IMG/VR virus record: IMGVR_UViG_3300048582_000136
Coordinates: 9,893 to 73,892 of that record
From: a virus
Length of the DNA stretch: 64,000 nucleotides
Reading direction: 5' to 3' (one strand)
Shown: one piece after another, positions 3,703 through 52,532 of the stretch
Layout of the letters: each line of letters begins with the position of its first letter
Position numbering within the stretch: position 1 is the stretch's first letter
Program-made: the position numbers and the translations under genes
Notes under the pieces: generated by a model
Databases searched by the model: none
Told to the model about the DNA's origin: nothing
What the model saw: the letters and a program-made list of their open reading frames with translations, nothing else

Positions 3703-3725
3703 CCTTTCATCAAAGGAACGCCCCC

Positions 3726-4265
3726 ATGTTCAACAGCACACCCTATCGTCCACGCCCTCGTGTGGACCCAAACCCCAACCAGGGTTTCGTCGAACACATC
3801 GCCAACCAGTTTCTTCGGGAAGTCTCCGAGGCGACAGAAGAAAAAGGCAGGAACCTAATCTCTCTCAATGACCAGCTCGGTGGTAGCCCCAAAGGCTACA
3901 CCTACGCTGGACTGTCTTTCCTGAGCGATCCCACCCTCCTTGACGACAAGACTCTCTACCTGGATCCAATCCACCCGTCTCTCGAGAAAGACGCCGAAGC
4001 TTTCCATCTGCGCGCCAGCCGTCTGCAAGGCATGCGGACCAAGCTGACTCAGGCTCTCGCAACCATTCTCCAGCGTTGCAACGGCGATGTTCAAACCTTC
4101 CGGGATGCTCTCCCGGATGAACTCGTGAACCTCACACAGCTGGAGTCCTACCCCCGCAATCGGCAGCCCGGCTTTCTCCTGAAAGCCCAGCCGATGCTCG
4201 CTGCGACCTACCGGTCGATCGACGACGCAATCCACTACCACAACCGCTACAGGCTCCTTGACTGA
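3726..4265 (+). CDS. N4 gp38-like conserved hypothetical protein
   Basis: Syntenic between helicase and polymerase; AAGGAA SD before ATG 3726. Confidence 0.75.
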   Translation: MFNSTPYRPRPRVDPNPNQGFVEHIANQFLREVSEATEEKGRNLISLNDQLGGSPKGYTYAGLSFLSDPTLLDDKTLYLDPIHPSLEKDAEAFHLRASRLQGMRTKLTQALATILQRCNGDVQTFRDALPDELVNLTQLESYPRNRQPGFLLKAQPMLAATYRSIDDAIHYHNRYRLLD

Positions 4266-19800: not shown

Positions 19801-22800
19801 CCTTCTTCACCTCTGCTGCAAAAGCCTGACCCTGTTCCGGGGTCATGGTGCCCGTGCGGACGAACTCCACTAGAGCATCGACAGCACCGCTGTATTTCGT
19901 CATGAAAGCAGCTTCGGTGTCAGCCGCGGTCTTGGCGTGCTTGTAGGCCGGATCAGCTTGTCCCGGCTCTTCGTAGACCAACTCGGTCTTCACCAGCCCG
20001 GAGGACTGGGCGACGGTGAGCCAGAAGAGATGACGGTGCTCCGTGTTGTCGAGATCGAGAACCGACTCCGTCGAAGCCCAAGCTTCCCGCATTGTCTTGT
20101 TGGCTTGCGGGTTGAAGCCGTCCTGGTGGATCCGCTCGTTCGATACCGCATAGACGTCGAAATGGGTCACCACCTCGTCAGGGTTCTTGCCGGCCTTTGC
20201 CGCATGAGCCTCGAGACGGATGTTGTGTGCCACCACACCCTCCCAGCTCTTCTGCAGCTGGGTGTTCCGGCCTTCGACCGACAGCCGGTGCTCGGTGTTC
20301 ATCAGGTCGGGGATTACCTTCTGGAATCCCATCAGGTCCATCCATGCGTCCTGACCAATGCCCTGCATCAGGTTCACAAAGGGGGTGTTGCGGTAGAACT
20401 TCTGTTCCTGGTGCCGACGCAGAGCTTTCTGCATCTTGGCTCCCAGACGACCGATCATGTTGCGTTTTTGCTTGGCCCGCACTTTGGCGGGCGGCTCGTC
20501 GAAGTAGTAAGGTTTCTCATCCTGCTCGAGGAAGTTTTCCTTCAGGAATGACCGGGCATAGGTGAGCTTCTTCAGACGCTCGTCCGTGTTCGGGTGCGAG
20601 GTCTTGATCGCAATCGCCGTCACGGTCTTGCCTTCACGCTCGATCTCGATCGGGCTTTCTTCGGTCAGCTTGTCCCGCATCAGCGAAAGGAGATCCGAAG
20701 CCAGACCTTGAGCAATGCCGAGGCTGTCCGTCATCGGGGCATCCCCGTTGATCTGGGCGCCCCAGAACTCCATGATCTCCCGAGCCAGGCTCTCCACTGC
20801 CAGCGAGCCAGAGACAGCATTCCGGCTGGCCTGCATCATCTCGTGGGTCACAGCACTCTCAGGTACGCCGAACATCTTGGCGACGTCTTCCGCATCGGGA
20901 AGCTTGGCTGGGTTGGCGTGCATGACCCAATGCAGAGCAGCCAGAGCCGCAGTCTGCAGAAGGGTCGGATCGAATTCCCCAGTGTTCTCGTCCACCAGGT
21001 TCAGGCTTCGAGCCGTGTCGATCTTGGTGAAGTCCTTTTCGCCATAGGCCAGGGCTTCAAGCGGGCTCAGGATCTCTGCCTTTTCCTCTCCCGGCTTCTT
21101 CACTGCCTTCAGGGTCTGTTGGCGCTCCATGAGCTTGTCGTTCATGCCCTGAACCAAGGCACGAACCTCTTTCTCGAGGAGGTCCTGGAAGGCTTCCTTC
21201 TGGTCTTCGGTCAGATCGTAATCAACCTTCAACTCTTCCGGCCGGCGCAGGACATCTAGAACCGTCTCGATAGGGCTGCCAGATGTAATGAGCTCCGACT
21301 TCGTCGTGTCGATCGTGTAGGCCCGGACGAACCGGGCCACACCTTTGGCCGATTTCACGAGGTTGGTAAAAGGGTTTCCTCGAACTCTTCCAGATCCCTC
21401 AGATCCTGCATCAGCCGCAGGCTCCGTTCCAACATCTTCCTCGACACTCGCTCCTGCTTCTTCCTGATCCGCCTCGTCACGCGCCTCGTCGTTTCCTTCA
21501 GAGCTTCCGCGATCTTCTCGCGCTTCTTCTTGAGGAGCCGCTTGCGCTTCTTCAGCTGCCGCTTCAAGAACCTGTCCATTTACCAGGGGAGCTCCTTGCC
21601 CAGAGGTTCCTTGTCCGACTTCTCCACTCGGGGTGTCGGAGGTGACTTCGGCTTCTCGGACTCCGACTCCGTAGTTTTCGAGGAGCTTTTCGGCGAAGTA
21701 GGTGCTGACATTTGGGACAATCTCCGCGAGTTTCTCAGGGTTCTTCAGGTAGAGAGCCAGAAGATCTGCGAAGATCTCCTCGTCCCTTTCCTGTCCTTCA
21801 TAGGTCAACGCATAGTTCTTCAGGAACTTGTGCAGGACATGCTTGGTGTTCTGGATGAGGTCAGCGATTTCCTTTCCTACCGGAGTGCGAGGGTTATACC
21901 ACTTTTGAGTGTGCGAGAGGCCAGCATTGCCACCATACTCGAGATCGTAAAGATCCACGTCGAGAAGGTGAGCCAGCTCATGCATGATCGTATGCCGATC
22001 CTGCTGGGTCTCGGTCCCGTTCATGATCCGCTTGATGACGTTTTCATGCAGGGAAATCAGGCGGTTCTCGACATTCATCGAACCAAGGGCTTCGCCCTCA
22101 CCGCTGAAGCTTCGCCATCCCATGACCACATCTGTGGCCCAGTTGCTAAAGTCGAACGAGGCTTCGATGATGGTCTTGATGAGACCGTTCACAGCCGCCT
22201 CTTCGGCCGTGGACATCGGCCGGCGCACATAGGACACACCATCGATCTCGAGGGTATCCGTGCCTTCTTCCAGCGCCTTTTCGATCACGGGCTCTGCCTC
22301 GGCTTGTGGCCGGGGGGTCGGTGCTGCATCTGGGTTCTTGGTCGGACGGGTGGGTCGAACCGGTGCCGGTTCTTGTGTGGGTTCGGGCTCCGATACAGTC
22401 TCGGTTGCTACCGCGGTCTGGTTGGAGATCCGACCATCTGCTGCCACACGCTGGATCGCACCTGCCTGAACCACAGAGCTCAGGCTGCGAGCCAGGGTCT
22501 CGTAGATATCAGCCACGGTCTGGGCATCGTTCACGATGGCCTTACCAGTGATCAGCGAGTTCTTCGACCCGGCGTTGACGTAAAGGCTTCCTGCCCCTTC
22601 ATCGGTGCTCTCGATCCAGCGACCACCATCCCAGGTGCGGTAGCTCACCTTGTTGTTTTGCCCCGGACGTTTCGTCAGGGACTCGTTAGCGGCCGACACC
22701 TTGTTCTGCATATGCTCGGCGAAGTTCCGCAGGTTGTCCATCAGGCTCTGGGCCTTGGCCTTGTTTCCTGCTCGTGCAGCCGAAAGGATCTTTCCCACAT

Positions 22801-25072
22801 GGTCCTTGAGACCATACTGGTTCAGGTCGTTCTGCTTGCCGGCCGACAGCACCATGTTCCGCACGGAGCCAACGGAAGCACGACCCTCTTCCACCTGCAG
22901 ATCCCGCGTCAGCTGGAGCTTCGTCTCATCAAGGTCGAAGTAGAGTTCCGAAATCTGTGCGGCTGCTTCCAGACGGAGCCTCGTCGACTCCTCGAGCTGG
23001 AGACGCCCACTGGTTGCCTGGTTCAGGATCTTGCGGACATAGGTCGGATCCACCCCGGTCGGGTTGGTATAAGCCAGCTGAACCACCTTGCCGACGGCAG
23101 CCTGCACTTCCGGGCTGCCAGCGTTCTCGTCCGTGATCTCGGGCAGGACACCCAGATCATCCTGGGTCAGCGTCGGGGCGATCTCCATCGCACGTTTGAA
23201 GATCGGGCTGCTCTGGATCGTATCCAGCTGCTCCCGCATCTGTTCGATTTCCATCCGGTATTCTGCCGGCAGCTGGGCCAGGTCAGCATCCTTCACAGCC
23301 TCGTAGAGCGCTGCCTGGTCGTTGAGCCAGAGAATGGCATCCTTGCGGGTCTGGGGATCGATCGATCCACTGGTCACTGCTTTCAGAACCGCATCTGTTG
23401 CCAGCACTCGAGGCGCCGAAGCTCCTTCAGCCAGACGCTCGTCACCCGGAGCGAACATCTTACGAACGCTTTCCGGGGTCTGGTCGATCTCGTCCTGTCC
23501 GAGGTCCAGTGCCCGACCCAGTTGGGTCACGAAATCGGCAACCGGAGCCGGAGTAGGTTTCGCTTCTGTAGCACCCTCAGAAACGACAGGTGTTGCGATC
23601 TTTTCGCGCAGTTCCGTCATCGAGGTCTGAGCGGTTTCAGCCGCTTGAGTAACCGCGGCTTTGCCCACCGGGGAAGCTGCATCACGCTTTGCATTTAGCG
23701 CTTCCACTCGGCTGTTCACAGCACCGACCACTGCATTGCCGGTTGCCTTTGCCGTCCCCACCAGAGCCTCTCTGGCAAGGCCCGGAGCCTTCACTGCAGC
23801 GGTGACACCAGCGCCTCCAAACGCACCCAGCGCAGCCCCTTCAGCCACGCCTTCAGAGAGCTCTTGCTCGTCATTGGCGAAGGTCTGGATCCCGAGGTTC
23901 TGGTTGAACGTCCCAGTGCCTTCCTGGAATCCTTCTTCGAGCACCTGCTTGCCGATGTCAGCCAGACCTTCCTTGAAGGATCCAACCGAGGTAGGCGAGA
24001 CTTCAAAACGCTCCACCACCTTACCTGCAGCGGCCGCCAGAGGCGCCTGCACCACAGCCGCCATCATCCCGGCGTCAGTAGCAATCTCGATAGAAGCTTC
24101 TTCGTGGCTCATGCCACTGTCGATTAGACGACGGTAATCTTCAGAACCTGCATAAAGCTGTTCCGGGCTCATCTCCATGACCCGGTTCGTGGCACCTACA
24201 TAAGCAGCTCCCGACTCTCCCAGAGCCACAGCAGCCGGCACAGCGACCTTGGCCAGTTTTGTGCCTTTGCTGACACCCTGTGCTACCTTGGCAAGGCCCG
24301 CAGACGGAACCAAAGAACCAATGTTCTGTGCCACAAAGTCGCCTGCCAGAGCGGGATCCGAAGCCACACGGGACACTGCATCACCGGCACTCTTGCCCCA
24401 GAGCTTTGCCGTCTCCCAAGCCGGGGAAGCACCTGCTGCCACAGCCTCGTCGTATTCAGCCTGGTTGTCAGCCTGATCCAGACTGCCCATGAGCTGGTTG
24501 GCTTCCGAGAACCGCTGGAAAGTCGGAGACTTTTGTTCTTCGATCCATTCGCTTCCCTTGTCGACCAGCCCGGATACAGCCGCACCAGCCCGATCGTTGA
24601 TCACTCCTGTGCCCAGAGCAGCGATCGAGCCTGCCAGGTTCCAGGCGCCTTGTCCAACGGCCAGAGCCGTGTCTCCGATCACCTCGTTGTCCGAACGGGT
24701 CTGTGCCAGATCCATGCCGAAATCACGTTCAGCATCAAGCAGCCGGCCACGGTTCCTTGCCACTTCAGATCCGTATTTCAGAACCACTTCACCGTAGGGA
24801 AGCGTCCGGAGATCCTGTAGCATTTCGTTGTCGGCCAGACGGTTGCCATTGCGCTGAGCTGCGGCATAAGTCCGAAGGGTGGCATCATCTGCCATCACCA
24901 GCTTCTTGGCTTCGCTGGCCGCCGTCACCGCAGCTTTCTTCTCTTCACTCTTGGTGGGAGGAGTTGCCACAGGCGAACCAAAGCTCGCCAGCTGGTCTGA
25001 CATCTTCGGCTTTCCGAACTCCTCGATCGCAACCGGGAAGAAGGATGTCGGGGAGAGCCGCGGATCAGCCAT
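13856..25072 (-). CDS. virion-encapsidated RNA polymerase (N4 gp50 vRNAP)
   Basis: 3738 aa; motif A EADGKTDG, motif B RGLLKNPLTVTVYGSG, motif C VFDG; no Cys seen. Confidence 0.97.
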   Translation of the reverse strand: MADPRLSPTSFFPVAIEEFGKPKMSDQLASFGSPVATPPTKSEEKKAAVTAASEAKKLVMADDATLRTYAAAQRNGNRLADNEMLQDLRTLPYGEVVLKYGSEVARNRGRLLDAERDFGMDLAQTRSDNEVIGDTALAVGQGAWNLAGSIAALGTGVINDRAGAAVSGLVDKGSEWIEEQKSPTFQRFSEANQLMGSLDQADNQAEYDEAVAAGASPAWETAKLWGKSAGDAVSRVASDPALAGDFVAQNIGSLVPSAGLAKVAQGVSKGTKLAKVAVPAAVALGESGAAYVGATNRVMEMSPEQLYAGSEDYRRLIDSGMSHEEASIEIATDAGMMAAVVQAPLAAAAGKVVERFEVSPTSVGSFKEGLADIGKQVLEEGFQEGTGTFNQNLGIQTFANDEQELSEGVAEGAALGAFGGAGVTAAVKAPGLAREALVGTAKATGNAVVGAVNSRVEALNAKRDAASPVGKAAVTQAAETAQTSMTELREKIATPVVSEGATEAKPTPAPVADFVTQLGRALDLGQDEIDQTPESVRKMFAPGDERLAEGASAPRVLATDAVLKAVTSGSIDPQTRKDAILWLNDQAALYEAVKDADLAQLPAEYRMEIEQMREQLDTIQSSPIFKRAMEIAPTLTQDDLGVLPEITDENAGSPEVQAAVGKVVQLAYTNPTGVDPTYVRKILNQATSGRLQLEESTRLRLEAAAQISELYFDLDETKLQLTRDLQVEEGRASVGSVRNMVLSAGKQNDLNQYGLKDHVGKILSAARAGNKAKAQSLMDNLRNFAEHMQNKVSAANESLTKRPGQNNKVSYRTWDGGRWIESTDEGAGSLYVNAGSKNSLITGKAIVNDAQTVADIYETLARSLSSVVQAGAIQRVAADGRISNQTAVATETVSEPEPTQEPAPVRPTRPTKNPDAAPTPRPQAEAEPVIEKALEEGTDTLEIDGVSYVRRPMSTAEEAAVNGLIKTIIEASFDFSNWATDVVMGWRSFSGEGEALGSMNVENRLISLHENVIKRIMNGTETQQDRHTIMHELAHLLDVDLYDLEYGGNAGLSHTQKWYNPRTPVGKEIADLIQNTKHVLHKFLKNYALTYEGQERDEEIFADLLALYLKNPEKLAEIVPNVSTYFAEKLLENYGVGVREAEVTSDTPSGEVGQGTSGQGAPLVNGQVLEAAAEEAQAAPQEEAREDRGSSEGNDEARDEADQEEAGASVEEDVGTEPAADAGSEGSGRVRGNPFTNLVKSAKGVARFVRAYTIDTTKSELITSGSPIETVLDVLRRPEELKVDYDLTEDQKEAFQDLLEKEVRALVQGMNDKLMERQQTLKAVKKPGEEKAEILSPLEALAYGEKDFTKIDTARSLNLVDENTGEFDPTLLQTAALAALHWVMHANPAKLPDAEDVAKMFGVPESAVTHEMMQASRNAVSGSLAVESLAREIMEFWGAQINGDAPMTDSLGIAQGLASDLLSLMRDKLTEESPIEIEREGKTVTAIAIKTSHPNTDERLKKLTYARSFLKENFLEQDEKPYYFDEPPAKVRAKQKRNMIGRLGAKMQKALRRHQEQKFYRNTPFVNLMQGIGQDAWMDLMGFQKVIPDLMNTEHRLSVEGRNTQLQKSWEGVVAHNIRLEAHAAKAGKNPDEVVTHFDVYAVSNERIHQDGFNPQANKTMREAWASTESVLDLDNTEHRHLFWLTVAQSSGLVKTELVYEEPGQADPAYKHAKTAADTEAAFMTKYSGAVDALVEFVRTGTMTPEQGQAFAAEVKKAGGGNEKLIHSLLAVAQYQAAMGSNEAGARSNFRHFLSLEADGKTDGPMAALVNHSKGKFTVAELKNFARGGFFLGRRDRTLNDQFQNNKADKDLYNIAAMGAEVFLKAKIGEMKAKGGEQHADAMLRFLNAFSGDFSYNEATGELTIKRGLLKNPLTVTVYGSGANGIADKVAGALLEAFYERLTELEMKRAETGNQNLGLEDLPGMAGYGTVIQDLMVLASSRVLYNKKEDRFYTTDKTSKGKKAPLKLRRPKDFVLDAANREMFSHNLRQILINPMRSGIGQVMANPLEVNAVLQRATQIQSQTMIAHFRQAVRELRDSQWASGKLEKGEFLSQDDYNEVYRRMSRFGAVIEPADSNENHLNLSGSESVKSSYSFTRSLDGKYGESTRLPEPTDAGVAAAAMMTISRGDAMMMVNYFLSEDPDLRVLAVFDGLEMPADGITTISQKINKAVADAWMNDNGPKDLADSFADFTRQGKSGPFADIKDSAALMEIAKTMGLEEVAPDGLVKAMTQVASQLSGELNQIAREVQARKNVMKSIEFSMDHMASGRAPHNNDGEVFDADPGDPNYDTKLVDWLNFRYEEELRKLTDKRQDELAQPSVEPASDGFAQKVKRFGVEMGYRPITRMTAKAMAKMMQSEGVTKEARDVMAMIQKTLPDFTFLFGSSEELTAYRNETYPDMIGTAAIDKGQTDINNRVVYIANMAGETVLHEALHTATLEVVYQGYADPSSLDEVQQAAIQNLEAMMNQFLDMDFSRTLRRDLEQEDGAVLNVAQVVQRQIADALMQGDALGKAIALNEFMAWTLSNQNLIEVMRKTKVRTPLRQLVFKATAWIRKLLGLPATQKIDMFSNILLNTGAVLNGDTRVQLPAGSVMNQTTGAPVDLRIQALMERFETKVKSHFDPMSVATKPGEEITVRANADQSVNFFIGYGFDMDPQQKSAFRQIQVALASSMKMDNRALVQAQRIYSHVTKQLTPKDFEGYPDGALRAQSRFDMLLGKYGYETDPEGRSNLLASFLALSQVDPEFRKVLDRIELPKDRQVSFGSMDEFLTSVANSGLDTLATAASGSGLGSRSTKDALDRLSLVLSEIDKDDRLWIEKQTQGFADKLDAKSAEFLSKAGERLGQWADNEAQKSLGQQRNAIKTSIRNGAAIVAALIDNNRGKAMGSALVSMGNQAQKVPTALVELMNEVIGITDENRGVLGLVNKVKAAVSAMRQDYREEVPRLIAEKFTRELSSEEWSSLHLVWGKTDAGSLRAYYSGADVRKLVTDKAYLAQEIQQREDELKASHRSHAAFFRKAKELAKFMVNGEVTNNNLLRNANAIAALMGENGKGTDDAAVIELIDILTTLYALENVGQDDINRVALLADTEAEGIDFLTGYLWATAQDEQAKIQTDAARFNHYKGYIPSERADGVSLLVRDDSEHDSLVAQGYTRMGDYKGAGVESGKKGYYFSTVSGNGTYTQGVMQTIQQSAAGIDPRTGRTVTGATAGVISGKYLSIIQQRLRNVQKGPVEALLPVYDAKGQVVAYERHIAPHALAMLERNTHMGEMLGAWRGRQAEEELGQEFNKTLIDNLKKVWDRDKGTKASEFVDLSQSQDKVHIDSWEMVPNDLRAYIKEVFGDDGFPIRKDMLNNAVGYRAASITDPWTGISRMRPEMQEGFRKVTTAVFGDNAFKVLATSEKAIQAGVSVVKSTIVVRSIVIPMANMASNFLQLAMHGVGVREMYQGYQTKLLEITKYQKHEKRRIDIEAELTAQRNNPDAVRRLQAELKSIEDANRRMSIWDLIEAGEFASISEGVTDADAALTSGKYAEYIQGLMDKVPAKLGNFGRYAFITRDTALFQGMARAMQYGDFLAKGVLYDHLRVQGKSKDEAIQGITEEFVNYNLLPGRTRSYADAMGLVWFPAFKLRSIKIARQHIINHPFRALMLTLGNPIMPEVPGLSLGSPIEDNLLSVTADGRLGYSIGPGMAFNAPSLHPWVNLMN

Positions 25073-44849: not shown

Positions 44850-46481
44850 TCAGACGATGTAGGAGCTAATGCCACCTACCCCGCCATCATCTTTGTCATC
44901 CACATCCCAGTGATCGTCTTTACGAGTCACGGGGGTATCCTCGGTTGGCTTCCAGGGCGTCATGTGCATCAGCATCGAGATCGTATCGAGGCAATCGTCC
45001 TTGCCTTTCAGCCCGTTCACCGTTGCCAGGCTGATCTGGCTCATGAACTCGACCATGATCTTGCTGGTCCTCATCTCGGTCGGGAAATACATCTTCCCGG
45101 CCTTGAACAGTGGAACCACCAGGTTGAAACGGCTGAGCTTATTCGTCGTCGGCCGGATCCCTGGCTTCCCCTTCTCCAACGCGAAACTGAACCAGATGTT
45201 GCGGTTCATTTGTTCTTGCTGGAGCCACTGGATGAAGGCGCCCTGTTGGCCAGTGATTTCCACACCTACCTGTTGGGGGCGATACTCGGATACCAGTCGG
45301 AAGAGAGCATCGATCGACTTGTCCATGGTCTGGCGTTCACAGACGCCGTCGACCCAGAACCAGTCCCCATTCGCGTTATACGCCCAGACCGAGATGACCG
45401 AAAAGTCAGCCGTTTCCTTGTCCGAGGTCGCGAAATCGGTTGTGATATAGAAGTTGAACCTACCTCGATTGTTTAGCAGACTCGGTCGGGAATACCAGCG
45501 GATTTCTTCTTCCTGGATCAAACGCTCATCAGCCGAAGAGATCCGCAGCATCAGTTCCTGGTTGAAAGCCGAAAGCTTTCCGGACATGGCCGAGACTTCA
45601 TATTGTTCTTTCACAAAGTCATAGGAGAACCGGTCTTCCCAGGCTCCACGAAACTCTTCCCTTGTGCAGGGAAAGCGCTCACAGATCGGCCAGACGTTCA
45701 CATCCCAGGCCCCGGATTCCACCGCCTCGTAGAGGATGTCATCCTTGTTGAAAGGGGTGCCGTTGAAGATGATCTTCCGACGGGTCGGATCGAGCGCGTA
45801 GTCCACACCCTTGTAGACCGTGTCCTTAATCGCCTGCATGGCGGCCTTGGACTTTGCATCGTCATCCGACAAGAGGTCATCAAGCACACAGAGCGGGGGA
45901 CGTTTCCCAAAGATCTTCGTCCCGCGGATACCGGTCTTAGCCCCAAACAGCTTAACGCCGAACCGGCCACCTTCCTTGTTCTTGAACTCGAAATAGTTGT
46001 CGGTGAAGCTTGCTTCTTCGATCCATTCCTGCAGCCACTCGGAGTTGTGGTAGCGGTATTCAATGTTCTTCCGCAGACTCTTGCAGCCGTTGTCCATCGA
46101 GTCCGAGATGTAGATCATGGCATCGACCTTGCCGAAGCCATCAATCTCCCCGAAGACCGCCAGGTAGAGCACCAGGTATTCCGCCATCAAGGTGGTCTTG
46201 GCCATCCCTCGGGCGCAGAGGTTCGCCACCCTGGTTCGCTTGCCCTGGATCTTGTCGAGCATCTTTAGGTGCACGACTGGCGTCTTGTGGCTTTCGCCTT
46301 GGGCTCCGTTCACCAGCTTGATGAAGTTCATGAACTTCAGGGCAAACGTCGACGGCACATAGCTGCCGTCGTTCAGGCTCGAGTAGTCAACCCCGTCCAA
46401 CCATGCGTCGACGGTCTGCTTCTCGTAGCCAAGGTAAAATTCTGCCTTGGCTGCCTCGACAGGGTTGACAAAGGGGGTCAC
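44850..46481 (-). CDS. terL: terminase large subunit (N4 gp68-like)
   Basis: CARGMAKTT, GAKTGIRG, VLDDL, NGTP, TTDFA and DDCLDT motifs. Confidence 0.96.
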   Translation of the reverse strand: MTPFVNPVEAAKAEFYLGYEKQTVDAWLDGVDYSSLNDGSYVPSTFALKFMNFIKLVNGAQGESHKTPVVHLKMLDKIQGKRTRVANLCARGMAKTTLMAEYLVLYLAVFGEIDGFGKVDAMIYISDSMDNGCKSLRKNIEYRYHNSEWLQEWIEEASFTDNYFEFKNKEGGRFGVKLFGAKTGIRGTKIFGKRPPLCVLDDLLSDDDAKSKAAMQAIKDTVYKGVDYALDPTRRKIIFNGTPFNKDDILYEAVESGAWDVNVWPICERFPCTREEFRGAWEDRFSYDFVKEQYEVSAMSGKLSAFNQELMLRISSADERLIQEEEIRWYSRPSLLNNRGRFNFYITTDFATSDKETADFSVISVWAYNANGDWFWVDGVCERQTMDKSIDALFRLVSEYRPQQVGVEITGQQGAFIQWLQQEQMNRNIWFSFALEKGKPGIRPTTNKLSRFNLVVPLFKAGKMYFPTEMRTSKIMVEFMSQISLATVNGLKGKDDCLDTISMLMHMTPWKPTEDTPVTRKDDHWDVDDKDDGGVGGISSYIV

Positions 46482-46843
46482 TTACCTTGTGCCCCCAGGC
46501 GATCGTCGGTGCCCACGCCACGCTCTTCGTAGGCGATCAGGAAGGCGATGCAGCAGCCTGCGTGCCAGAGATGAGACCGGCCGGTTTCCTGATCCAAGGA
46601 ACCAAAGATAAAGCTCTCCGTGGTTGGACCTTTGCCACCCCACCAGCACCACATGTGTCGCATCAGAGCGCCGAACACACGGCCCCAGCTCATGCCTTTT
46701 TCCCAATTCCGATCGGCATACTTGTTGGCGCCAAACGTCAGGATCTCGCCAACGGCGAAGACGAGTTCCGGGGGGATGAGGTCCAGCCGAACCTTGCCTG
46801 AATCCAGTTTGGTGCCCTCGGGAAGGGTGCTACCATCTGCCAT
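46478..46843 (-). CDS. dATP/dGTP diphosphohydrolase-like protein (DUF5664)
   Basis: KLDSGKVRLDLIP...FGANKYADRNWEKG...ALMRH...DQETGRSHLWHA..CIAFL. Confidence 0.85.
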   Translation of the reverse strand: MADGSTLPEGTKLDSGKVRLDLIPPELVFAVGEILTFGANKYADRNWEKGMSWGRVFGALMRHMWCWWGGKGPTTESFIFGSLDQETGRSHLWHAGCCIAFLIAYEERGVGTDDRLGAQGK

Positions 46844-46844
46844 T

Positions 46845-47984
46845 CTAGTGTCCTCGATAAGTGTTTCTGAGGTTGGAGGTAATCCGCCCGATCTCGCCCC
46901 AGCTCTTGTGGACGGTCATCGCCGTCAGGGTTCCTCGGGAGAACAGCCCTTTGGTCTTGGCCCAGATGTTGGGCCTGTGTAGGGTCTGGAATTGCTCGGC
47001 GATGCAACCGACCAGCTCCTGCTTCTTTCCGTGATGGAAGTGTGCCGTCATGATGATCCGGTGCATCTTTGCGGCCGCCCATGCGTCAGCGAATTGATCT
47101 GCCCAGACATCCTTCAGGCCAGCCCAGTTGAGGGTGTCGCCATGGTGCGGGAAGGCCGCACACTCGCCCCAGGAGATCACCCGATACTCGTCTTCGGTGA
47201 TGACGAAGGTCACACGGTCGTTCAGTTCGAAGTGTGCCTGTAGAGCCAGCGCCACAGCCATGTAGGCGGTCGGATCGTGGTTGCCTTTGATGAAGTGCAC
47301 CTCGACCGTCTGGTGCGTCTCGAGGAGCCGGTAGACCGCTCTCCGCATCAGGCGAATGGCAACCCGTGTGTTCGTCAGGTGTTGGTGCTTGATGACGTCC
47401 AGAGGGTTCCCGGAGTTGGGTGTCACCCCTTTGTGGTCGTTGGCTTCGAGCAAATCTCCGAGCTCGATCAAGACCGCATGCGAGGCACGAGGCAAACGAG
47501 TGACCACATCGTCGAAGGCCTGATTGAACTCTTCTTCATTCTTGGGGTCTCCGTAGTGGCCGCCAATATGGAGGTCGGCCAAAGCGATCCAATTCGCCAG
47601 ATCCGCATCCGCATGTTCCCGTCCTGGAACCAAGGAGATCGGGAGCAGCCGAGGGATGTCGTCGAGGCTTTCAATCACTGCATCGGCGAAGCTGATCTTC
47701 TCATCCGTGTCCCCGATCATAAAGTAGAGCGAGCTTCCGGATCCGTATTTGTCCTTGTCCAAGAGCCAACCGGAATGGAGCGATCCGAGGTCTGTCAGCC
47801 CTTTTTCTGTCAGCCGGCGTAGAAGTTCCGGATCAAGGCTTGCTCGTTTCTTGGCTGATGCAATTCGCCGTTGTACTGCTCTCCGATTCATGTTGAGAGC
47901 CCTGGCAATCTGCCTTTGGCTCATTCCCTGGTCGAGCTGTTCTTGAATCAACCGCTCTTCTTCTTCGAAGGTTCTACCTGACAT
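46845..47984 (-). CDS. calcineurin-like metallophosphoesterase with N-terminal HTH
   Basis: GMSQRQIARALNMNRRAVQR (HTH); ADLHIG, LGDLLE, GNHD, HHGD and AHFHH. Confidence 0.85.
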   Translation of the reverse strand: MSGRTFEEEERLIQEQLDQGMSQRQIARALNMNRRAVQRRIASAKKRASLDPELLRRLTEKGLTDLGSLHSGWLLDKDKYGSGSSLYFMIGDTDEKISFADAVIESLDDIPRLLPISLVPGREHADADLANWIALADLHIGGHYGDPKNEEEFNQAFDDVVTRLPRASHAVLIELGDLLEANDHKGVTPNSGNPLDVIKHQHLTNTRVAIRLMRRAVYRLLETHQTVEVHFIKGNHDPTAYMAVALALQAHFELNDRVTFVITEDEYRVISWGECAAFPHHGDTLNWAGLKDVWADQFADAWAAAKMHRIIMTAHFHHGKKQELVGCIAEQFQTLHRPNIWAKTKGLFSRGTLTAMTVHKSWGEIGRITSNLRNTYRGH

Positions 47985-48002: not shown

Positions 48003-48686
48003 TCAATTTGTGTCTGTGAGCACTTCAGCATCGACGATGGATTGATGTGCGATCTCTTTGGTTTTCATGCCGGCCTGGATCAGATCCTTCTGCATTTCGG
48101 CCATCTTTCCCAACTGTTCCCGCAGCTCGTTCAGTCCCGAGTTGTCGGCCATGTTGAGATTCAGCTGCACCGCGGCAGCCTCGGGTTTTTTGAGGTGGTT
48201 CAAGAGGGAGTCCGCGGCTTTTTGTTGCACGTCTTCCCGCTTGGCATGTTTCATCAGCCAGACCTGTTTGTTGATCGCAGCCTGGTAGACGTCCTGATTC
48301 AGAACCCAGATCGGGATCAGGGATTGCTCCAGGATGATGTTCACCAGCTTGTTCTTGGCGAACGCAGCGACGTAAGCGCTAATGTCTTTATCCGTTGCAC
48401 CCCGAGCGACCAGCGTCTGGTAGCGGGCCGGGAAGGTCCTGACGTAGGACTCCTGGTTCGAGTAGCCCATCATCTTGAAGCTGACGTAGGCTACCGCGTT
48501 GACGTAGTCCTCGACCTTGAACTTTCCCTCTTTCAGGACCGCGGTGTAGGACAGAAGGTTGTCCCGAACGGTTCGGGCAATTTCTTCATCCGTGCAGATC
48601 CCGTTCAGGGTATCGACCAGCTCTTGCGACACGGCTGACTTCAGGGAAGCAGGTAGCGCAGTCTGCACTTCAGCTTGAGTCAGCAT
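48003..48686 (-). CDS. terS: terminase small subunit (N4 gp69-like)
   Basis: SYTAVLKEGKFK..DY.NAV.YVS.K.MG, KNKLVN and AADSLLNHLK motifs. Confidence 0.88.
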   Translation of the reverse strand: MLTQAEVQTALPASLKSAVSQELVDTLNGICTDEEIARTVRDNLLSYTAVLKEGKFKVEDYVNAVAYVSFKMMGYSNQESYVRTFPARYQTLVARGATDKDISAYVAAFAKNKLVNIILEQSLIPIWVLNQDVYQAAINKQVWLMKHAKREDVQQKAADSLLNHLKKPEAAAVQLNLNMADNSGLNELREQLGKMAEMQKDLIQAGMKTKEIAHQSIVDAEVLTDTN

Positions 48687-48731
48687 GATGGTCTTTAGGT
48701 TTCCCGGACTTACAACTTAAATCCTCCCTAC

Positions 48732-48747
48732 AGATCAACGTTGATCT
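48732..48747. promoter_or_regulatory. perfect 16-bp palindrome (operator-like) in the divergent region
   Basis: AGATCAACGTTGATCT. Confidence 0.55.
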
Positions 48748-48762
48748 TTGCAAGAAATCTAT

Positions 48763-48790
48763 TTGACAACCAGTTCAGGATCACGCTAAT
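48763..48790 (+). promoter_or_regulatory. host sigma70-type promoter
   Basis: TTGACA-N16-GCTAAT, with an alphaproteobacterial-like -10 element. Confidence 0.6.
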
Positions 48791-48818
48791 CCGAATCTAA
48801 GAATCGGAAATCGATCGA

Positions 48819-48992
48819 GCAGACATACTTCAATCGACCACCAGGCAGGTTGTCATGGGCCTGGTCTCCAAACGAGTGTCCGCTCGTTTTCCTGGTGGTC
48901 GTTTCGAGCGTGGCTACGCTGAAGCAGACAGCGACTGACCAGGTTTTCGGGGCTTCTCCTGGGAGTGCCACGCTCGACTGAATCCCCTCTGC
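48819..48992 (+). ncRNA. candidate structured RNA with two tandem three-way junctions
   Basis: Two perfect 11-bp stems (48835-45/48891-901 and 48904-14/48967-77), each enclosing two hairpins. G-U pairs favour the + strand. Confidence 0.6.
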
Positions 48993-49003
48993 CCAGGACC
49001 CAA

Positions 49004-49510
49004 ATGAGCAACACACCAAGACTGACCAAGGCCCAACGCAAGATCGAGGCACTGGTCAAAGGCTGGATCTACATCGACATGTTCCACCTCAGCATTCCGG
49101 TATTTATCAGCGACGTGGATCGTGTGGCCTGGCTCTCCCACCACCAGATGGAGTTCAGCACTCTGGATCCGGACAAGAAGGTCGCAGCCATTGCCGGCTG
49201 GGCTTCGGATCCCGAAGGATGCCGTTGCATTTACATGGTCTTGCCACTGGGAGTCACCTCAGCCACCTGGGCGCATGAAGCCTCACATGTCGTGGATTTC
49301 GTCATCGAATACCTGGGGCTGGATCCAGGGCTCGAAGGCACCGAGGCTAGGGCTTACATGCTCGGCCACATCTTCTCCTCCATCGAGGACATCATGAAGC
49401 CACTTATAGCTTCTCAACCGGAGGTCTCAACAAATGAGAAACCCCGTCCTATCACTCCTGCTCCTATTGTCCCTATGTGCTCCTGCGCACGCGGAACCAC
49501 CTGGAGGTAG
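49004..49510 (+). CDS. HEXXH zincin-like metallopeptidase
   Basis: TWAHEASHVVD followed by TEARAY, giving a third-ligand Glu. Confidence 0.75.
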   Translation: MSNTPRLTKAQRKIEALVKGWIYIDMFHLSIPVFISDVDRVAWLSHHQMEFSTLDPDKKVAAIAGWASDPEGCRCIYMVLPLGVTSATWAHEASHVVDFVIEYLGLDPGLEGTEARAYMLGHIFSSIEDIMKPLIASQPEVSTNEKPRPITPAPIVPMCSCARGTTWR

Positions 49511-49900: not shown

Positions 49901-49988
49901 TCTCATGCACCTGAGCCTCTACCCAATCGAAGATCTTCGAGTCGAAATCGCACGTCGCGAAATCAAGTTCCAACCAAGGAGTACCCGA

Positions 49989-50315
49989 ATGAACCAAGTG
50001 ATGACACCCGCAGAGGTCGAAACCGCCCTGGCCAACAAGCCCTGGGCCGGCCAACGTGTCACTCCCGAACAGCTAGAGGAAGAGATCATCGACGAGGCCT
50101 ACCATGTCTTTCCCGGAAGCACGGTAACCGTCTGTCTTCTCTTTCTCCGCAACGGTTTCAGCGTCACCGGTGAAAGCGCCTGTGCTGTGCCCTCGAACTT
50201 CGATCCCGAGATTGGCAAGGGACTTGCCCGAGCCAATGCGAAGCAGAAGCTCTGGTCCCACCTGGCCTTCCGTCTGCGTGACAGGATCACCCAGGAAGAG
50301 ATCGCCCAGATCTGA
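49989..50315 (+). CDS. Phage Gp49/Gp66 family protein (Acb4-like)
   Basis: RVTP..L...TVC.L.LRNGFSVTGESAC..P.NFDPEIG..LA..NA..KLW; AAGGAG SD. Confidence 0.85.
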   Translation: MNQVMTPAEVETALANKPWAGQRVTPEQLEEEIIDEAYHVFPGSTVTVCLLFLRNGFSVTGESACAVPSNFDPEIGKGLARANAKQKLWSHLAFRLRDRITQEEIAQI

Positions 50316-50337: not shown

Positions 50338-50365
50338 GACCCCCGCTTTTGGCGGGGGTCTTTTT
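50338..50365 (+). terminator. rho-independent terminator between convergent units
   Basis: GACCCCCGC-TTTTG-GCGGGGGTC-TTTTT. Confidence 0.85.
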
Positions 50366-50763
50366 CATCCCAGGATCTTGCCGACCAGGAGCTTCATCGC
50401 GATTTCGATGACCCATCGCTCGCGCACCAAGGTCAGGTCGTCTGCCACTTCTTCTGCCCATTCCGGTCGACCATTCTCGATCCAGCCATAGGTCTGGTGC
50501 CAGAGCACCGCATGGCCGGCGCCTGTGTCTTTGACCTTGGTTCTCCAGATCTCGGCCGCACCAGTCACCAGAGCTAGCCACACACGCAGCATGCTTTTGC
50601 CTTCGGCCAGCCACAGGGCGGTGATCGCGAAGTCGTCACAGTCGCCGTGCATCCCACCAGCTTCGCGCCAGATGACACGGAAACTGTCGATCGCTTTATC
50701 AGACCTGTAGACGAAGCGCTTGGCGAAGTCTTCCATGTCCTCGTGGTAGTATCTGCTCATCAC
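50365..50763 (-). CDS. transglutaminase-like cysteine peptidase
   Basis: GDCDDFA ... GHAVL ... WIEN. Confidence 0.75.
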   Translation of the reverse strand: MMSRYYHEDMEDFAKRFVYRSDKAIDSFRVIWREAGGMHGDCDDFAITALWLAEGKSMLRVWLALVTGAAEIWRTKVKDTGAGHAVLWHQTYGWIENGRPEWAEEVADDLTLVRERWVIEIAMKLLVGKILG

Positions 50764-52532
50764 TGGAATCCATACATTCTGATCCGTCCGCTGGCAGCGT
50801 TTCCAGAGGAAAAGATGAACCGCAGAGCAGTCGTATCTTCCCGCAGAACCCTAACTCCCGAAGACTTGATCGAGTTACAATTCCCACTTGTATTGTCGAA
50901 GGATCCTTCGAATTCGATACGGGTCTTGGCTCCGCCGTTCCCTGCGCTGAACATCTTCAAAGTCCCCGTAACACCATCTTCTGTTGACGCACTTCCGACA
51001 GATGCGTTGGTCAGTTGGATCAAGGATGCTGTTGCATCTTGTGTTCCAGGGTTCAATCCACCCGAAGACAAGCCTTGAACAGCATACTCATAGTCACTCG
51101 CACCTGCAGCATAGGTTGCCCCACCATCCGTCGAAGTCCTGACAGCCAAAGCAACGCCATCCGTCACAGGCTTTACGTTGTCCAACTCCCACTCGTAGTA
51201 ACGATACAAGGAGTTATCGAACTCCGGAAAAGACACGCTGGATTGGTTGCTGATCGTCTTGTCTGCCAACAGGATTCGCCCAGTCCGGGGCACCCAATCC
51301 ATCCCCGTACCGTCTTCGTTTACAACCTGGATATATCCAGGCAGACCCGGTTCGAAAGGAGTTATAGTCGCGCCCCAATGGGTCGTTGCCCTCTGCTCAA
51401 ACCTTGCCGTGCTCCTCCGAGGCAACAGGATTGGATCTCCTGCTGCCAAAAGGTTGATGATCACCCCCGTCTGGGGATACACCCACACAGGGTTGAACGC
51501 CCGGTTGTGGATCGTCAGAATCCTACCGTTCTCTCCCGAAACCGTGTTCGGAAGGGTAACCCCCGACGGGTCAGCATCCGCTGTCTGAATGAACACCAAC
51601 CGGTCGGTCGCAGCAATCTGCCCCTGCCCCCTTGCATTGGTTCCAGCCGTGAAGCTGGTTTGGGTCGTTCCCCCCAGGAAATGCCGGCCGGCACCATTGA
51701 TCGTATACAGTGCCATTGCCGCGGCACCGGTAAAGTAAGCTGCCTTGTCACTCGCAGGGCTCAGCCCCGCCAATGCCTCCAGGATCTGGCTGAACTCCTG
51801 GACATCAGATCCCAGCACCAAACCCAGGTTGGCTCTGAACGCAGCCGCCACCCCTGTATACTCCGAGCCGGCATTTGCTGCTTCCACGTCACCGGCCCCA
51901 GCGCCTGCAGCACCTTTCGATGCCCAGACCTCCCAATACACATCTCCTAGATCATCCAGGAACACGGTCGAAGTGTGGGGAACCAAACAGAAGTAAGTCG
52001 AGCCCCCTTCTTGAACCAAGTCCGCAAAGACATAGTTCGTTGCCGCAGCCCAAGGACCTCTCCGACGGGGAACCAAGGAAGCCTCAGCCAGGACCCCGTC
52101 CAAAGCAACTTCAGCCTCATCTCTTGCATCTTCGGCCGCATCTCGTGCAGCCTCTGCCCCAACCCTCGCTGCCACCGCTTGGTTCGCATACCCCAGCATA
52201 GCGTCGACCTGGACATCCCCAGGCAACACCTCCGGTGCTTGAGCCAAGAGCTGCGTGAAGCTCAGGGTCTCTTCTTCCGGGACAAACACCATGAACTTGT
52301 GCGTGTCTCCGCCTTTGGCGGTCAGGCTCACCTGATACCTTCCAGGGTAGAGCCCAATGGTCCCCACACCCATGCTGTTGGTTACCAGGCTCACTTCATC
52401 AGGAACCACCACTGCAGTTCCCGCATCCAGGATCGTCCCATGAACCTTTGCGGATCGACGGAAACTTACCTTTGCTTCACCTTGCAGAACACCATCAGGT
52501 GTCCTGAATTCTCCCGAAATCTGGCACAGCAT
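50760..52532 (-). CDS. additional tail fibre/spike (Stf-like N-terminus, CBM-like module)
   Basis: QISG..RTPDG...LYPGRYQV; WAAATNY...LVQEGGSTYFCLVPHTS; RANLGL.LGSDVQ; beta-rich C-terminus. Confidence 0.8.
   Translation of the reverse strand: MLCQISGEFRTPDGVLQGEAKVSFRRSAKVHGTILDAGTAVVVPDEVSLVTNSMGVGTIGLYPGRYQVSLTAKGGDTHKFMVFVPEEETLSFTQLLAQAPEVLPGDVQVDAMLGYANQAVAARVGAEAARDAAEDARDEAEVALDGVLAEASLVPRRRGPWAAATNYVFADLVQEGGSTYFCLVPHTSTVFLDDLGDVYWEVWASKGAAGAGAGDVEAANAGSEYTGVAAAFRANLGLVLGSDVQEFSQILEALAGLSPASDKAAYFTGAAAMALYTINGAGRHFLGGTTQTSFTAGTNARGQGQIAATDRLVFIQTADADPSGVTLPNTVSGENGRILTIHNRAFNPVWVYPQTGVIINLLAAGDPILLPRRSTARFEQRATTHWGATITPFEPGLPGYIQVVNEDGTGMDWVPRTGRILLADKTISNQSSVSFPEFDNSLYRYYEWELDNVKPVTDGVALAVRTSTDGGATYAAGASDYEYAVQGLSSGGLNPGTQDATASLIQLTNASVGSASTEDGVTGTLKMFSAGNGGAKTRIEFEGSFDNTSGNCNSIKSSGVRVLREDTTALRFIFSSGNAASGRIRMYGFQ

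What the first reader, a model, noticed from the sequence alone, without database searches (positions are those of the whole stretch)
48819..49003. Double three-way-junction RNA whose loops match a site beside the downstream RBS: candidate new RNA switch (C4/CI-like)
Seen: unit 1 (67 nt) is stem CGACCACCAGG/CCTGGTGGTCG enclosing CAGGTT/GGCCTG and AAACGAGT/GCTCGTTT. Two nt later, unit 2 (74 nt) is stem TCGAGCGTGGC/GCCACGCTCGA enclosing CGCTG/CAGCG and CCAGG/CCTGG. A basal helix (GCAGA..TTCA 48819-32 with TGAA..TCTGC 48979-92) can close both. Unit-2 loops GCAGA and GGGGCTTC are complementary (one mismatch) to the contiguous GAATCCCC-TCTGC (48980-92), just before AGGA...ATG. AGCAGACA occurs twice (48818, 48923), so these pairings compete, and TCCTGGG can also pair with CCCAGGA over the RBS. 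Known: P1 C4 and P4 CI immunity RNAs are ~77-79-nt branched RNAs processed from a leader, whose unpaired segments bind targets in the same transcript; ImmA-type antirepressors are HEXXH proteases. Inference: an RNA-controlled switch gating an HEXXH protease and counter-defence cassette. A riboswitch or a packaging-related RNA near terS are alternatives.
Basis: partly seen in the sequence, partly recalled or inferred. Interest (0 to 1): 0.8.

Follow-up and report, generated by a model that had tools for sequence, protein, structure and literature searches.

The report
Conserved structured leader RNA, N4-like phages
A roughly 160-base folded RNA (a long hairpin followed by a three-armed junction) lies in front of a small anti-defence gene cassette in a few uncultivated N4-like phages; it is conserved with compensating base changes and matches no catalogued RNA family, but its function is still unknown.

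Summary
The two stem-enclosed units at 48835-48901 and 48904-48977 are the minimum-energy fold. Four other metagenomic N4-like phages carry the same architecture at the same place, between the gp69 packaging gene and a rightward cassette.

A model built from the window alone recovers all four relatives. 96% of pair cells are standard pairs, against 32-42% in slid controls. 14 of 32 pairs show changes on both sides. G-U pairs outnumber A-C pairs 11 to 1, and sense-strand z-scores are better, so the RNA is in the sense of the downstream gene.

Rfam 15, ARAGORN, 29 other N4-like genomes and host-genome scans give nothing. This is an uncatalogued motif restricted to a small clade.

The basal helix, the GCAGA/TCTGC pairing, the AGCAGACA duplicate and the anti-RBS pairing are specific to the window. 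Only the CGGGG loop and the downstream CCCC tract are invariant. Membership of the C4/CI family is not supported.

The most likely role is a cis-acting 5' leader for a cassette made of an HEXXH protein and an Acb4-family sponge. It probably acts through a loop-to-tail pseudoknot beside the ribosome-binding site. That mechanism is inferred, not shown. Earlier notes of this scan describe the plain N4 gp69/gp70 promoter spacer, but not this RNA.

The parts
48751..48768 (+). Conserved promoter-like box CAAGAAA-N5-TTGACA (-35 hexamer at 48763-48768). A weak -10 candidate lies 17-18 bp downstream, which predicts a transcription start near 48800.
   Evidence: CAAGA.A-N5-TTGAC is invariant in all five element-bearing loci while the flanks diverge. 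Among 48 other N4-like gp69 loci checked it occurs only in L031 and L032, which also carry the element. The strict sigma-70 scan finds no full promoter because the -10 is poor. Promoter function is inferred.
48814..48824 (+). Conserved 5' box ATCGAGCAGAC at about +12 to +24 of the predicted transcript. Its first six bases repeat the start of the P2 5' arm (TCGAGC).
   Evidence: ATCGAGCAGA is present in the window, L022, L004 and L032 but not in L005. In L032 it can pair 8/8 with the P2 3' arm (read from the sequence). Its role is unknown.
48835..48901 (+). Unit 1: a long hairpin with an 11-bp stem, CGACCACCAGG/CCTGGTGGTCG. In the window it encloses two small hairpins.
   Evidence: MFE. All five sequences keep a 9-12 bp stem with different sequence around a CCAUC/GAUGG core. 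7 of 11 pairs show changes on both sides. The inner hairpins are not conserved.
48904..48977 (+). Unit 2: a three-way junction. The closing helix P2 is 48904-14 with 48967-77. The arms are P2a (48917-33) and P2b (48939-62).
   Evidence: RNAalifold on a sequence-only MAFFT alignment predicts P2 and P2a with covariation. The CM-fitted alignment gives 98-100% of cells paired in P2 and P2a and 91% in P2b. Model R1 scores 75-84 bits in the five members.
48944..48957 (+). P2b loop with the invariant CGGGG (48948-52), consensus GKUUKCGGGG.
   Evidence: Invariant in five of five sequences. It is complementary to downstream C-tracts.
48984..48987 (+). Invariant CCCC tract, 7 nt after P2 and 7 nt before the Shine-Dalgarno. 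It is the candidate pseudoknot partner of the CGGGG loop.
   Evidence: CCCC sits in the same alignment columns in all five sequences. The loop-tail duplex beats composition-matched shuffled tails in L032 (p 0.008), L022 (0.011) and L004 (0.046), but not in the window or L005 (0.32).
48995..49006 (+). Shine-Dalgarno AGGA (48995-98) and start codon ATG (49004-06) of the first cassette gene.
   Evidence: Sequence. The ORF frame was checked. Predicted unpaired probability of the SD region is about 0.5.
49004..49510 (+). 168-aa HEXXH-motif protein of unknown function, the first gene after the leader.
   Evidence: It has six homologues in the 5.8-billion-protein set, all of unknown function. There is no Pfam hit and only phrog_1365 of unknown function. 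The AF2 model has pLDDT 85, with no informative fold match. An Atlas lead to Peptidase_M78 is weak, at 0.84.
49905..50315 (+). Acb4-family (PF13876, Phage_gp49_66) gene, the last gene of the cassette.
   Evidence: Pfam E = 3.5e-22. PF13876 is the Acb4 anti-CBASS sponge family according to bioRxiv 10.1101/2024.12.30.630793. Homologues follow the HEXXH gene in L022 and L004.
50338..50360 (.). Strong hairpin that closes the cassette. It is followed by a T-run, and so terminator-like, on the + strand only.
   Evidence: Terminator scan: 10-bp stem with 8 G-C pairs, followed by TTTTT on the + strand.

Best explanation
This is a previously uncatalogued, clade-restricted structured RNA that forms the roughly 200-nt 5' leader of a rightward accessory cassette (HEXXH protein, variable genes, Acb4-family sponge). 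The cassette sits opposite the late packaging operon of a small group of N4-like phages.

The proposed course is as follows. Transcription starts from a conserved host-type promoter box (CAAGAAA-N5-TTGACA). The RNA folds into a long hairpin (unit 1) followed two bases later by a three-way junction (unit 2). The invariant CGGGG loop of arm P2b probably pairs with an invariant CCCC tract that lies 3-8 nt after the junction and just upstream of the Shine-Dalgarno. The resulting pseudoknot would set how readily ribosomes load on the first gene, how long the mRNA lasts, or both.

Shown: the fold, its conservation with compensatory changes, its strand, its position, and its absence from Rfam and from other N4-like phages. 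Inferred: the promoter and transcription start, the pseudoknot, and any regulatory effect.
For: Fold: the MFE reproduces the units, and the core z-score is -3.3.

Homologues: four syntenic loci lie between gp69 and the HEXXH-gene position.

Covariation: RNAalifold on a MAFFT alignment gives 7 of 21 pairs with double changes. A model built from the window alone finds all four relatives at full length. On that alignment 96% of cells are paired against 32-42% in slid controls, 14 of 32 pairs have changes on both sides, and 0 of 500 shuffles reach the observed values.

Strand: 11 G-U cells against 1 A-C cell. Sense z-scores run from -1.5 to -3.8, and antisense from +0.4 to -3.3.

Promoter box: invariant in all five, and seen only in element bearers.

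Leader rather than terminated sRNA: no T-run follows P2, and the SD and ATG follow within 18-27 nt in the window.

Loop and tail: CGGGG and CCCC are invariant, and the duplex beats shuffled tails in three of five sequences.

Cassette content.
Against: There are only five sequences, and the main pair count uses an alignment fitted to the model.

The pseudoknot pairs never vary, so they carry no covariation, and the duplex is not better than chance in the window or in L005.

The predicted SD accessibility is about 0.5 in every sequence, so no clear on/off fold is seen.

In L032 the RNA is not followed by the HEXXH gene within the 325 nt before the contig ends. Conversely, L112 has an HEXXH homologue without the RNA. 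The RNA-gene link is therefore not obligatory.

No transcription data exist, and no sequencing run could be listed. The -10 element is poor.
Confidence: 0.55

Rival explanations
1. C4/CI-like processed antisense RNA. One or both units are cut out of the leader as a 65-80-nt stable RNA, whose loops pair with sites in the same transcript to block translation or cause termination of the cassette.
For: The branched units are 67 and 74 nt and lie in a leader. One loop (CGGGG) is complementary to a conserved tract next to the RBS in all five sequences.
Against: No Rfam model, C4-type or other, reaches E <= 10. The second loop-target pair (GCAGA/TCTGC) and the competing AGCAGACA copies exist only in the window. 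The phage is N4-like with a virion RNA polymerase and has no immunity region. No antirepressor or Peptidase_M78 signature is found downstream. Processing could not be tested.
Confidence: 0.1
2. Riboswitch or protein-binding aptamer. The three-way junction, with its invariant loop and junction bases (GKUUKCGGGG, GRAGUG), binds a small molecule or a phage or host protein. Binding changes the loop-tail pseudoknot and with it the expression of the anti-defence cassette.
For: The junction is about 74 nt, the size and topology of known junction-type aptamers. The invariant unpaired bases are concentrated in one loop and one junction strand. A pseudoknot partner lies beside the SD. Alternative folds of similar energy appear in L022 and L004.
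Against: No Rfam riboswitch hit was found. Five sequences are too few to define an aptamer core. The downstream genes are not metabolic or transport genes for any obvious ligand. The element is confined to one small phage clade.
Confidence: 0.12
3. Stand-alone non-coding RNA whose job is unrelated to the gene that follows. Examples would be a decoy or scaffold RNA acting on host or phage factors, or an RNA tied to the divergent packaging operon.
For: In L032 the element is kept, with its promoter box, although no HEXXH gene follows within the 325 nt available and a convergent ORF appears instead. The HEXXH gene also occurs without the RNA in L112. Other N4-like phages make abundant late sRNAs from an intergenic locus (LUZ7; PMC9163698).
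Against: No intrinsic terminator follows the structure in any member. In four of five members an SD and start codon follow within about 20-45 nt. The L032 contig ends too early to judge. The LUZ7 sRNA locus lies at a different genome position, and no homology was shown.
Confidence: 0.1
4. DNA-level element. The inverted repeats act in DNA, for example as a cruciform or protein-binding site for packaging, as a replication origin, or as an N4-type hairpin promoter.
For: The element lies beside the terS-like gp69 and terL genes. N4-like polymerases use DNA hairpin promoters (PMC9163698). Inverted repeats are compatible with either strand.
Against: 11 G-U pairs against 1 A-C pair, together with the sense/antisense z-score asymmetry, indicate a single-stranded RNA of one polarity. 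The stems are 9-12 bp with 20-50-nt loops and a branched junction, unlike the >=4-bp stem and 3-nt loop of early promoters. Helix sequences drift freely while pairing is kept, which does not fit a sequence-specific protein site.
Confidence: 0.05

Closest known systems
P1 C4 and P4 CI immunity RNAs (the C4 antisense RNA family; my recollection is that Rfam holds it as RF01695)
   Same: A branched RNA of about 70 nt lies in the leader of the transcript it could regulate. A loop is complementary to a site near the ribosome-binding site of the downstream gene.
   Different: There is no sequence or structure match. Only one of the two proposed loop-target pairs is conserved. The phage is a lytic N4-like phage, not a P1/P4-type prophage, and has no icd/ant-type target gene. 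Processing is untested.
The gp69/gp70 divergent promoter spacer of coliphage N4 (EF056009.1, 68,895-69,054), described in earlier notes of this scan as a two-way host-type promoter with a short leader hairpin
   Same: The genomic position is the same: between the first late packaging gene (gp69) and a small rightward gene set. It also has a host-type promoter-like box.
   Different: The N4 spacer is 160 nt and has no three-way junction. Model R1 finds nothing in N4, ort11, Zuri or 26 other N4-like genomes. The promoter box of this clade is absent from 46 of 48 other loci.
Junction-type cis-regulatory leaders with a loop-to-tail pseudoknot next to the SD. Examples from my own knowledge are the purine riboswitch class (three-way junction) and the phage T4 gene 32 leader pseudoknot.
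   Same: A three-way junction of about 74 nt has conserved unpaired bases. A potential pseudoknot lies adjacent to the translation start region.
   Different: No ligand or protein partner is known, no Rfam match was found, and the conserved bases differ from those of any known class.
LUZ7 late intergenic sRNA locus (Putzeys et al. 2022, PMC9163698)
   Same: It is a structured non-coding transcription unit in an N4-like phage, and its function is unknown.
   Different: It lies at a different genome position (between LUZ7 orf69 and orf70). No sequence or structure relation was tested or seen.

Membership tests
C4/CI antisense immunity RNA | Match to the family's covariance model | tested here: not met
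   cmscan of 48650-49100 against all 4227 Rfam 15 models at E <= 10 returned only three unrelated chance hits. The whole window had no hit at gathering score.
C4/CI antisense immunity RNA | Two unpaired segments complementary to two target sites in the same transcript at the RBS of the regulated gene | tested here: inconclusive
   One pair (CGGGG loop with CCCC tract) is conserved in five of five sequences but never varies. The second pair (GCAGA with TCTGC) exists only in the window.
C4/CI antisense immunity RNA | Excised from the leader as a stable RNA of about 77 nt | not testable with these tools
   No RNA data exist, and the look-up of sequencing runs listed no run.
C4/CI antisense immunity RNA | Lies in the immunity region of a temperate P1/P4-type element, upstream of icd/ant-type genes | tested here: not met
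   The genome is N4-like, with a 3738-aa virion RNAP, N4-type terL and gp69. The downstream protein has no Pfam family.
Any Rfam 15 family (riboswitches, phi29 pRNA, tRNA-like elements and others) | Score at or above the gathering threshold | tested here: not met
   No hit in the 64-kb window.
tRNA or tRNA-like gene | Cloverleaf recognised by ARAGORN | tested here: not met
   No tRNA or tmRNA in the window.
N4-type hairpin promoter (vRNAP early or LUZ7-type middle) | Short DNA hairpin with a stem of about 4-7 bp and a 3-4-nt loop, 13-15 bp upstream of the transcription start | tested here: not met
   The stems here are 9-12 bp with loops of 20-50 nt, plus a branched junction. The promoter definition is from PMC9163698.
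Riboswitch (generic) | Conserved aptamer core, ligand-dependent alternative fold, gene association that points to a ligand | tested here: inconclusive
   Invariant loop and junction bases and alternative folds are present. There are only five sequences, and no ligand is suggested by the downstream genes.

The most novel reading that the evidence does not exclude
The three-way junction is an aptamer that senses a signal of the host's anti-phage immunity, for example a CBASS- or Thoeris-type signalling nucleotide, or a host or phage protein. Through the CGGGG/CCCC pseudoknot beside the RBS it would switch on the cassette behind it, which encodes nucleotide-sponge-type counter-defence proteins (Acb4-family, and Tad2-like in L022). 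It would then be a phage RNA sensor that couples counter-defence expression to immune activation.
Probability: 0.05. Interest if true: 0.9.

Novelty: new variant of a known kind. Interest (0 to 1): 0.5.

Why it matters
This is a validated, uncatalogued structured RNA with real covariation, placed directly in front of genes of the Acb4 and Tad2 counter-defence families. How phages time or tune the expression of immune-evasion genes is poorly known, so an RNA element dedicated to such a cassette is a concrete and testable entry point. It would also add a new motif to RNA family catalogues. If it proves to be only a stabilising or translation-tuning leader of a small clade of uncultivated phages, the interest is modest.

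Tried and rejected
- The contigs encoding homologues P0002-P0006, including a 72-kb one, could not be fetched. This is the main limit on the covariation test.
- **Sequencing runs:** The look-up of sequencing runs listed no run and no RNA holder. That is no evidence either way, and read laying was therefore not used.
- **Cultured phages:** blastn of the region and tblastn of the HEXXH protein against the phages collection found no match.
- **First searches of viral contigs:** an exact stem pattern found nothing. Searches with the single gp69 protein and with the first HEXXH alignment also found nothing.
- **Motif scans:** degenerate motif scans of viral contigs yielded L022 and L032 plus chance hits, including a coding-gene family of 11 loci.
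- **Prokaryote genomes:** the protein-alignment scan found no relative, and the strict-pattern scan gave 5 chance hits scoring 10-14 bits. No host-genome copy was found.
- **MAFFT on unit 1:** it could not align unit 1 by structure. This was solved with a covariance model built from the window.
- **HEXXH protein:** Pfam, PDB sequence search, Foldseek and VIA-align gave no informative match. The ESM Atlas gave only viral hypothetical clusters and a weak Peptidase_M78 lead.
- **N4 replication origin:** I had the idea, from memory, that the N4 replication origin lies in this region. The literature search did not support it, and I dropped it to a low-probability rival.
- **Rejected on structure or Rfam grounds:** tRNA-like, phi29 pRNA-like and N4 hairpin-promoter readings.

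Full report
**Context.** The window is bases 9893-73892 of a 73.9-kb IMG/VR virus record. It is an N4-like (Schitoviridae-type) phage. It has a 3738-aa virion RNA polymerase at 13856-25072 (-) and an N4-type large terminase at 44850-46481 (-), 69% identical to N4 gp68. It also has a gp69 homologue at 48003-48686 (-) that matches phrog_2109. The finding lies in the 317-nt divergent spacer between gp69 and a + strand ORF that starts at 49004. This is the position of the gp69/gp70 spacer of N4. The + strand unit runs to a strong terminator at 50338-50360. It encodes a 168-aa HEXXH-motif protein, small ORFs and an Acb4-family PF13876 protein. PF13876 is the Acb4 anti-CBASS sponge family according to bioRxiv 10.1101/2024.12.30.630793.

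**Observation.** RNAfold gives exactly the two units plus the basal helix as the MFE. The z-score is -2.2 for 201 nt and -3.3 for the 160-nt core. Rfam 15 has no hit at gathering score in the window and nothing meaningful at E <= 10 in the region. ARAGORN finds no tRNA.

**Relatives.** The HEXXH protein has only five homologues among 5.8 billion proteins. Scans with protein alignments and DNA motifs gave four independent syntenic loci:
- L004 and L005, from metagenomes
- L022 (also held as L031 and L111) and L032 (also held as L119), from IMG/VR

In all four the gp69 gene lies divergently upstream. L004, L005 and L022 have the HEXXH ORF downstream. L032 does not, within the 325 nt before its contig ends.

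**Conservation of the fold.** Unit 1 is a 9-12 bp stem in every sequence, and its sequence differs:
- window: CGACCACCAGG
- L022: GUCCAUCGG
- L005: GGUUCAUCACAG
- L004: CCAUCACACACG
- L032: GCGCAUCCUUGG, with two G-U pairs

The unit 1 stems share a CCAUC/GAUGG core. Unit 2 keeps its closing helix (GAGYGYGG.../...YGCUC) with compensatory and wobble changes. P2a varies in length from 5 to 13 bp. P2b is a short arm carrying the invariant loop GKUUKCGGGG.

RNAalifold on a plain MAFFT alignment of unit 2 predicts P2 and P2a, with 7 of 21 pairs changed on both sides. A covariance model built from the window sequence alone (R2) recovers all four relatives over its full length, at 18.6 to 73 bits. On that alignment:
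- 96% of 150 pair cells are standard pairs, against 32-42% when partners are slid by 1-3 columns
- 14 of 32 pairs show changes on both sides
- 0 of 500 column shuffles reach the observed values

The alignment is fitted to the model, which inflates the percentage paired. However, the separate MFE folds of the window, L022, L032 and L005 reproduce unit 1 and the junction independently.

**Strand.** There are 11 G-U cells against 1 A-C cell. Sense-strand z-scores are -3.3, -2.3, -1.5, -3.6 and -3.8. Antisense z-scores are -3.3, -0.2, +0.4, -1.9 and -2.2. The RNA is therefore in the sense of the downstream cassette.

**Upstream region.** The block CAAGA.A-N5-TTGAC is invariant in all five sequences, amid divergent flanks. 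It is absent from 46 of 48 other N4-like gp69 loci, and the two exceptions are L031 and L032, which also carry the element. The -10 region is poor. That fits what is reported for host-polymerase promoters of N4-like phages (PMC9163698, PMC4496689). An 11-nt box, ATCGAGCAGAC, follows in four of the five.

**What is not conserved.** The following are found only in the window:
- the GCAGA/TCTGC loop-target pair
- the duplicated AGCAGACA
- the internal hairpins of unit 1
- the TCCTGGG/CCCAGGA pairing over the RBS

**What remains of the loop-target idea.** The CGGGG loop and a CCCC tract placed 3-8 nt after P2 are both invariant. Extended complementarity reaches 8 bp in L032 (UUGCGGGG with CCCCGCAA) and 8 bp in L022 (CGGGGCUU with AAGCCCCG, at a second tract abutting the SD). 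It is 6 bp in L004 and L005 and 7 of 8 in the window. Against composition-matched shuffled tails the duplex gives p = 0.008, 0.011 and 0.046 in L032, L022 and L004, but 0.32 in the window and in L005. Because the core pairs never vary there is no covariation. The pseudoknot is plausible but not shown. Predicted SD accessibility is about 0.5 everywhere.

**Distribution.** Model R1 (unit 2 plus tail) scores 75-84 bits in the five members. It finds nothing in the following:
- 80 other gp69 loci
- 29 complete or near-complete N4-like genomes, including N4, ort11 and Zuri
- L112, which holds an HEXXH homologue in another context
- the chance pattern hits in prokaryote genomes

It is single-copy in its own genome.

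**Downstream genes.**
- The HEXXH protein has a confident AF2 model (pLDDT 85), but no Pfam, PDB-sequence, Foldseek or VIA-align match that says anything about function. In L022 its first His is Tyr. 'ImmA-type protease' remains a guess.
- An Acb4-family gene follows it in the window, L022 and L004.
- L022 also carries a Tad2-like gene, PF11195.

The counter-defence character of the cassette is therefore reasonably supported.

**Interpretation.** The best-supported reading is a new, clade-restricted structured 5' leader RNA of an anti-defence cassette. A probable loop-tail pseudoknot lies next to the ribosome-binding site. Its effect on translation or stability is inferred. Rival readings are a C4-like processed RNA, a riboswitch or protein-binding aptamer, a stand-alone ncRNA (prompted by L032), and a DNA-level element, which the G-U evidence makes unlikely. 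Membership of the C4/CI family fails the tests that could be run.

Earlier notes of this scan describe the simpler N4 gp69/gp70 two-way promoter spacer on other genomes. They do not describe this RNA, and model R1 finds nothing in N4 itself.

Noticed in passing
window 48733-48746: A perfect 14-bp palindrome GATCAACGTTGATC lies just upstream of the conserved promoter box, with two GATC sites. L022 has GATCAACGCTGATC at the same place, and GGATCAACGA recurs in the L004 and L005 spacers. It could be an operator or a Dam-methylation-sensitive site for the divergent promoters.
   Followed up: no
L022 2110-2574 (-): In this relative the HEXXH motif of the first cassette protein reads YEASH, so the first His is lost, while the rest of the protein is well conserved. 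This argues against an obligatory zinc-protease activity for the family.
   Followed up: partly
L022 1547-2131 (-) and 1194-1550 (-); L004 about 3629-3910 (+): The cassette behind the RNA carries a Tad2-like (PF11195) gene and an Acb4-family (PF13876) gene in L022, and an Acb4-family gene in L004. The cassette content varies but keeps pointing to nucleotide-signal sponges.
   Followed up: partly
window 46478-47984 (-): Two genes are inserted between gp69 and terL: a dATP/dGTP diphosphohydrolase N-terminal-domain gene (PF18909) and an HTH plus metallophosphoesterase or exonuclease-like gene (phrog_704). In L022, gp69 is followed directly by terL.
   Followed up: no
window 50365-52532 (-): A 590-aa fibre-like gene and an overlapping 132-aa gene form a separate leftward unit directly after the cassette terminator. 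The + strand cassette is therefore an island inside leftward late genes.
   Followed up: no
L032 1-325 (sense strand of the element): Here the RNA and its promoter box are kept, but no HEXXH gene follows. A convergent ORF of at least 94 aa, open at the contig end, occupies the space, and it has no homologue in any locus fetched.
   Followed up: partly
L005 3541-3547 with 3631-3637: In L005 an upstream CGCUC box can pair with the P2 5' arm and extend the unit 1 helix, and the full-length MFE uses this pairing. In the other four sequences an upstream UCGAGC box mimics the P2 5' arm instead. Either arrangement offers a competitor to P2, but the evidence is weak.
   Followed up: partly
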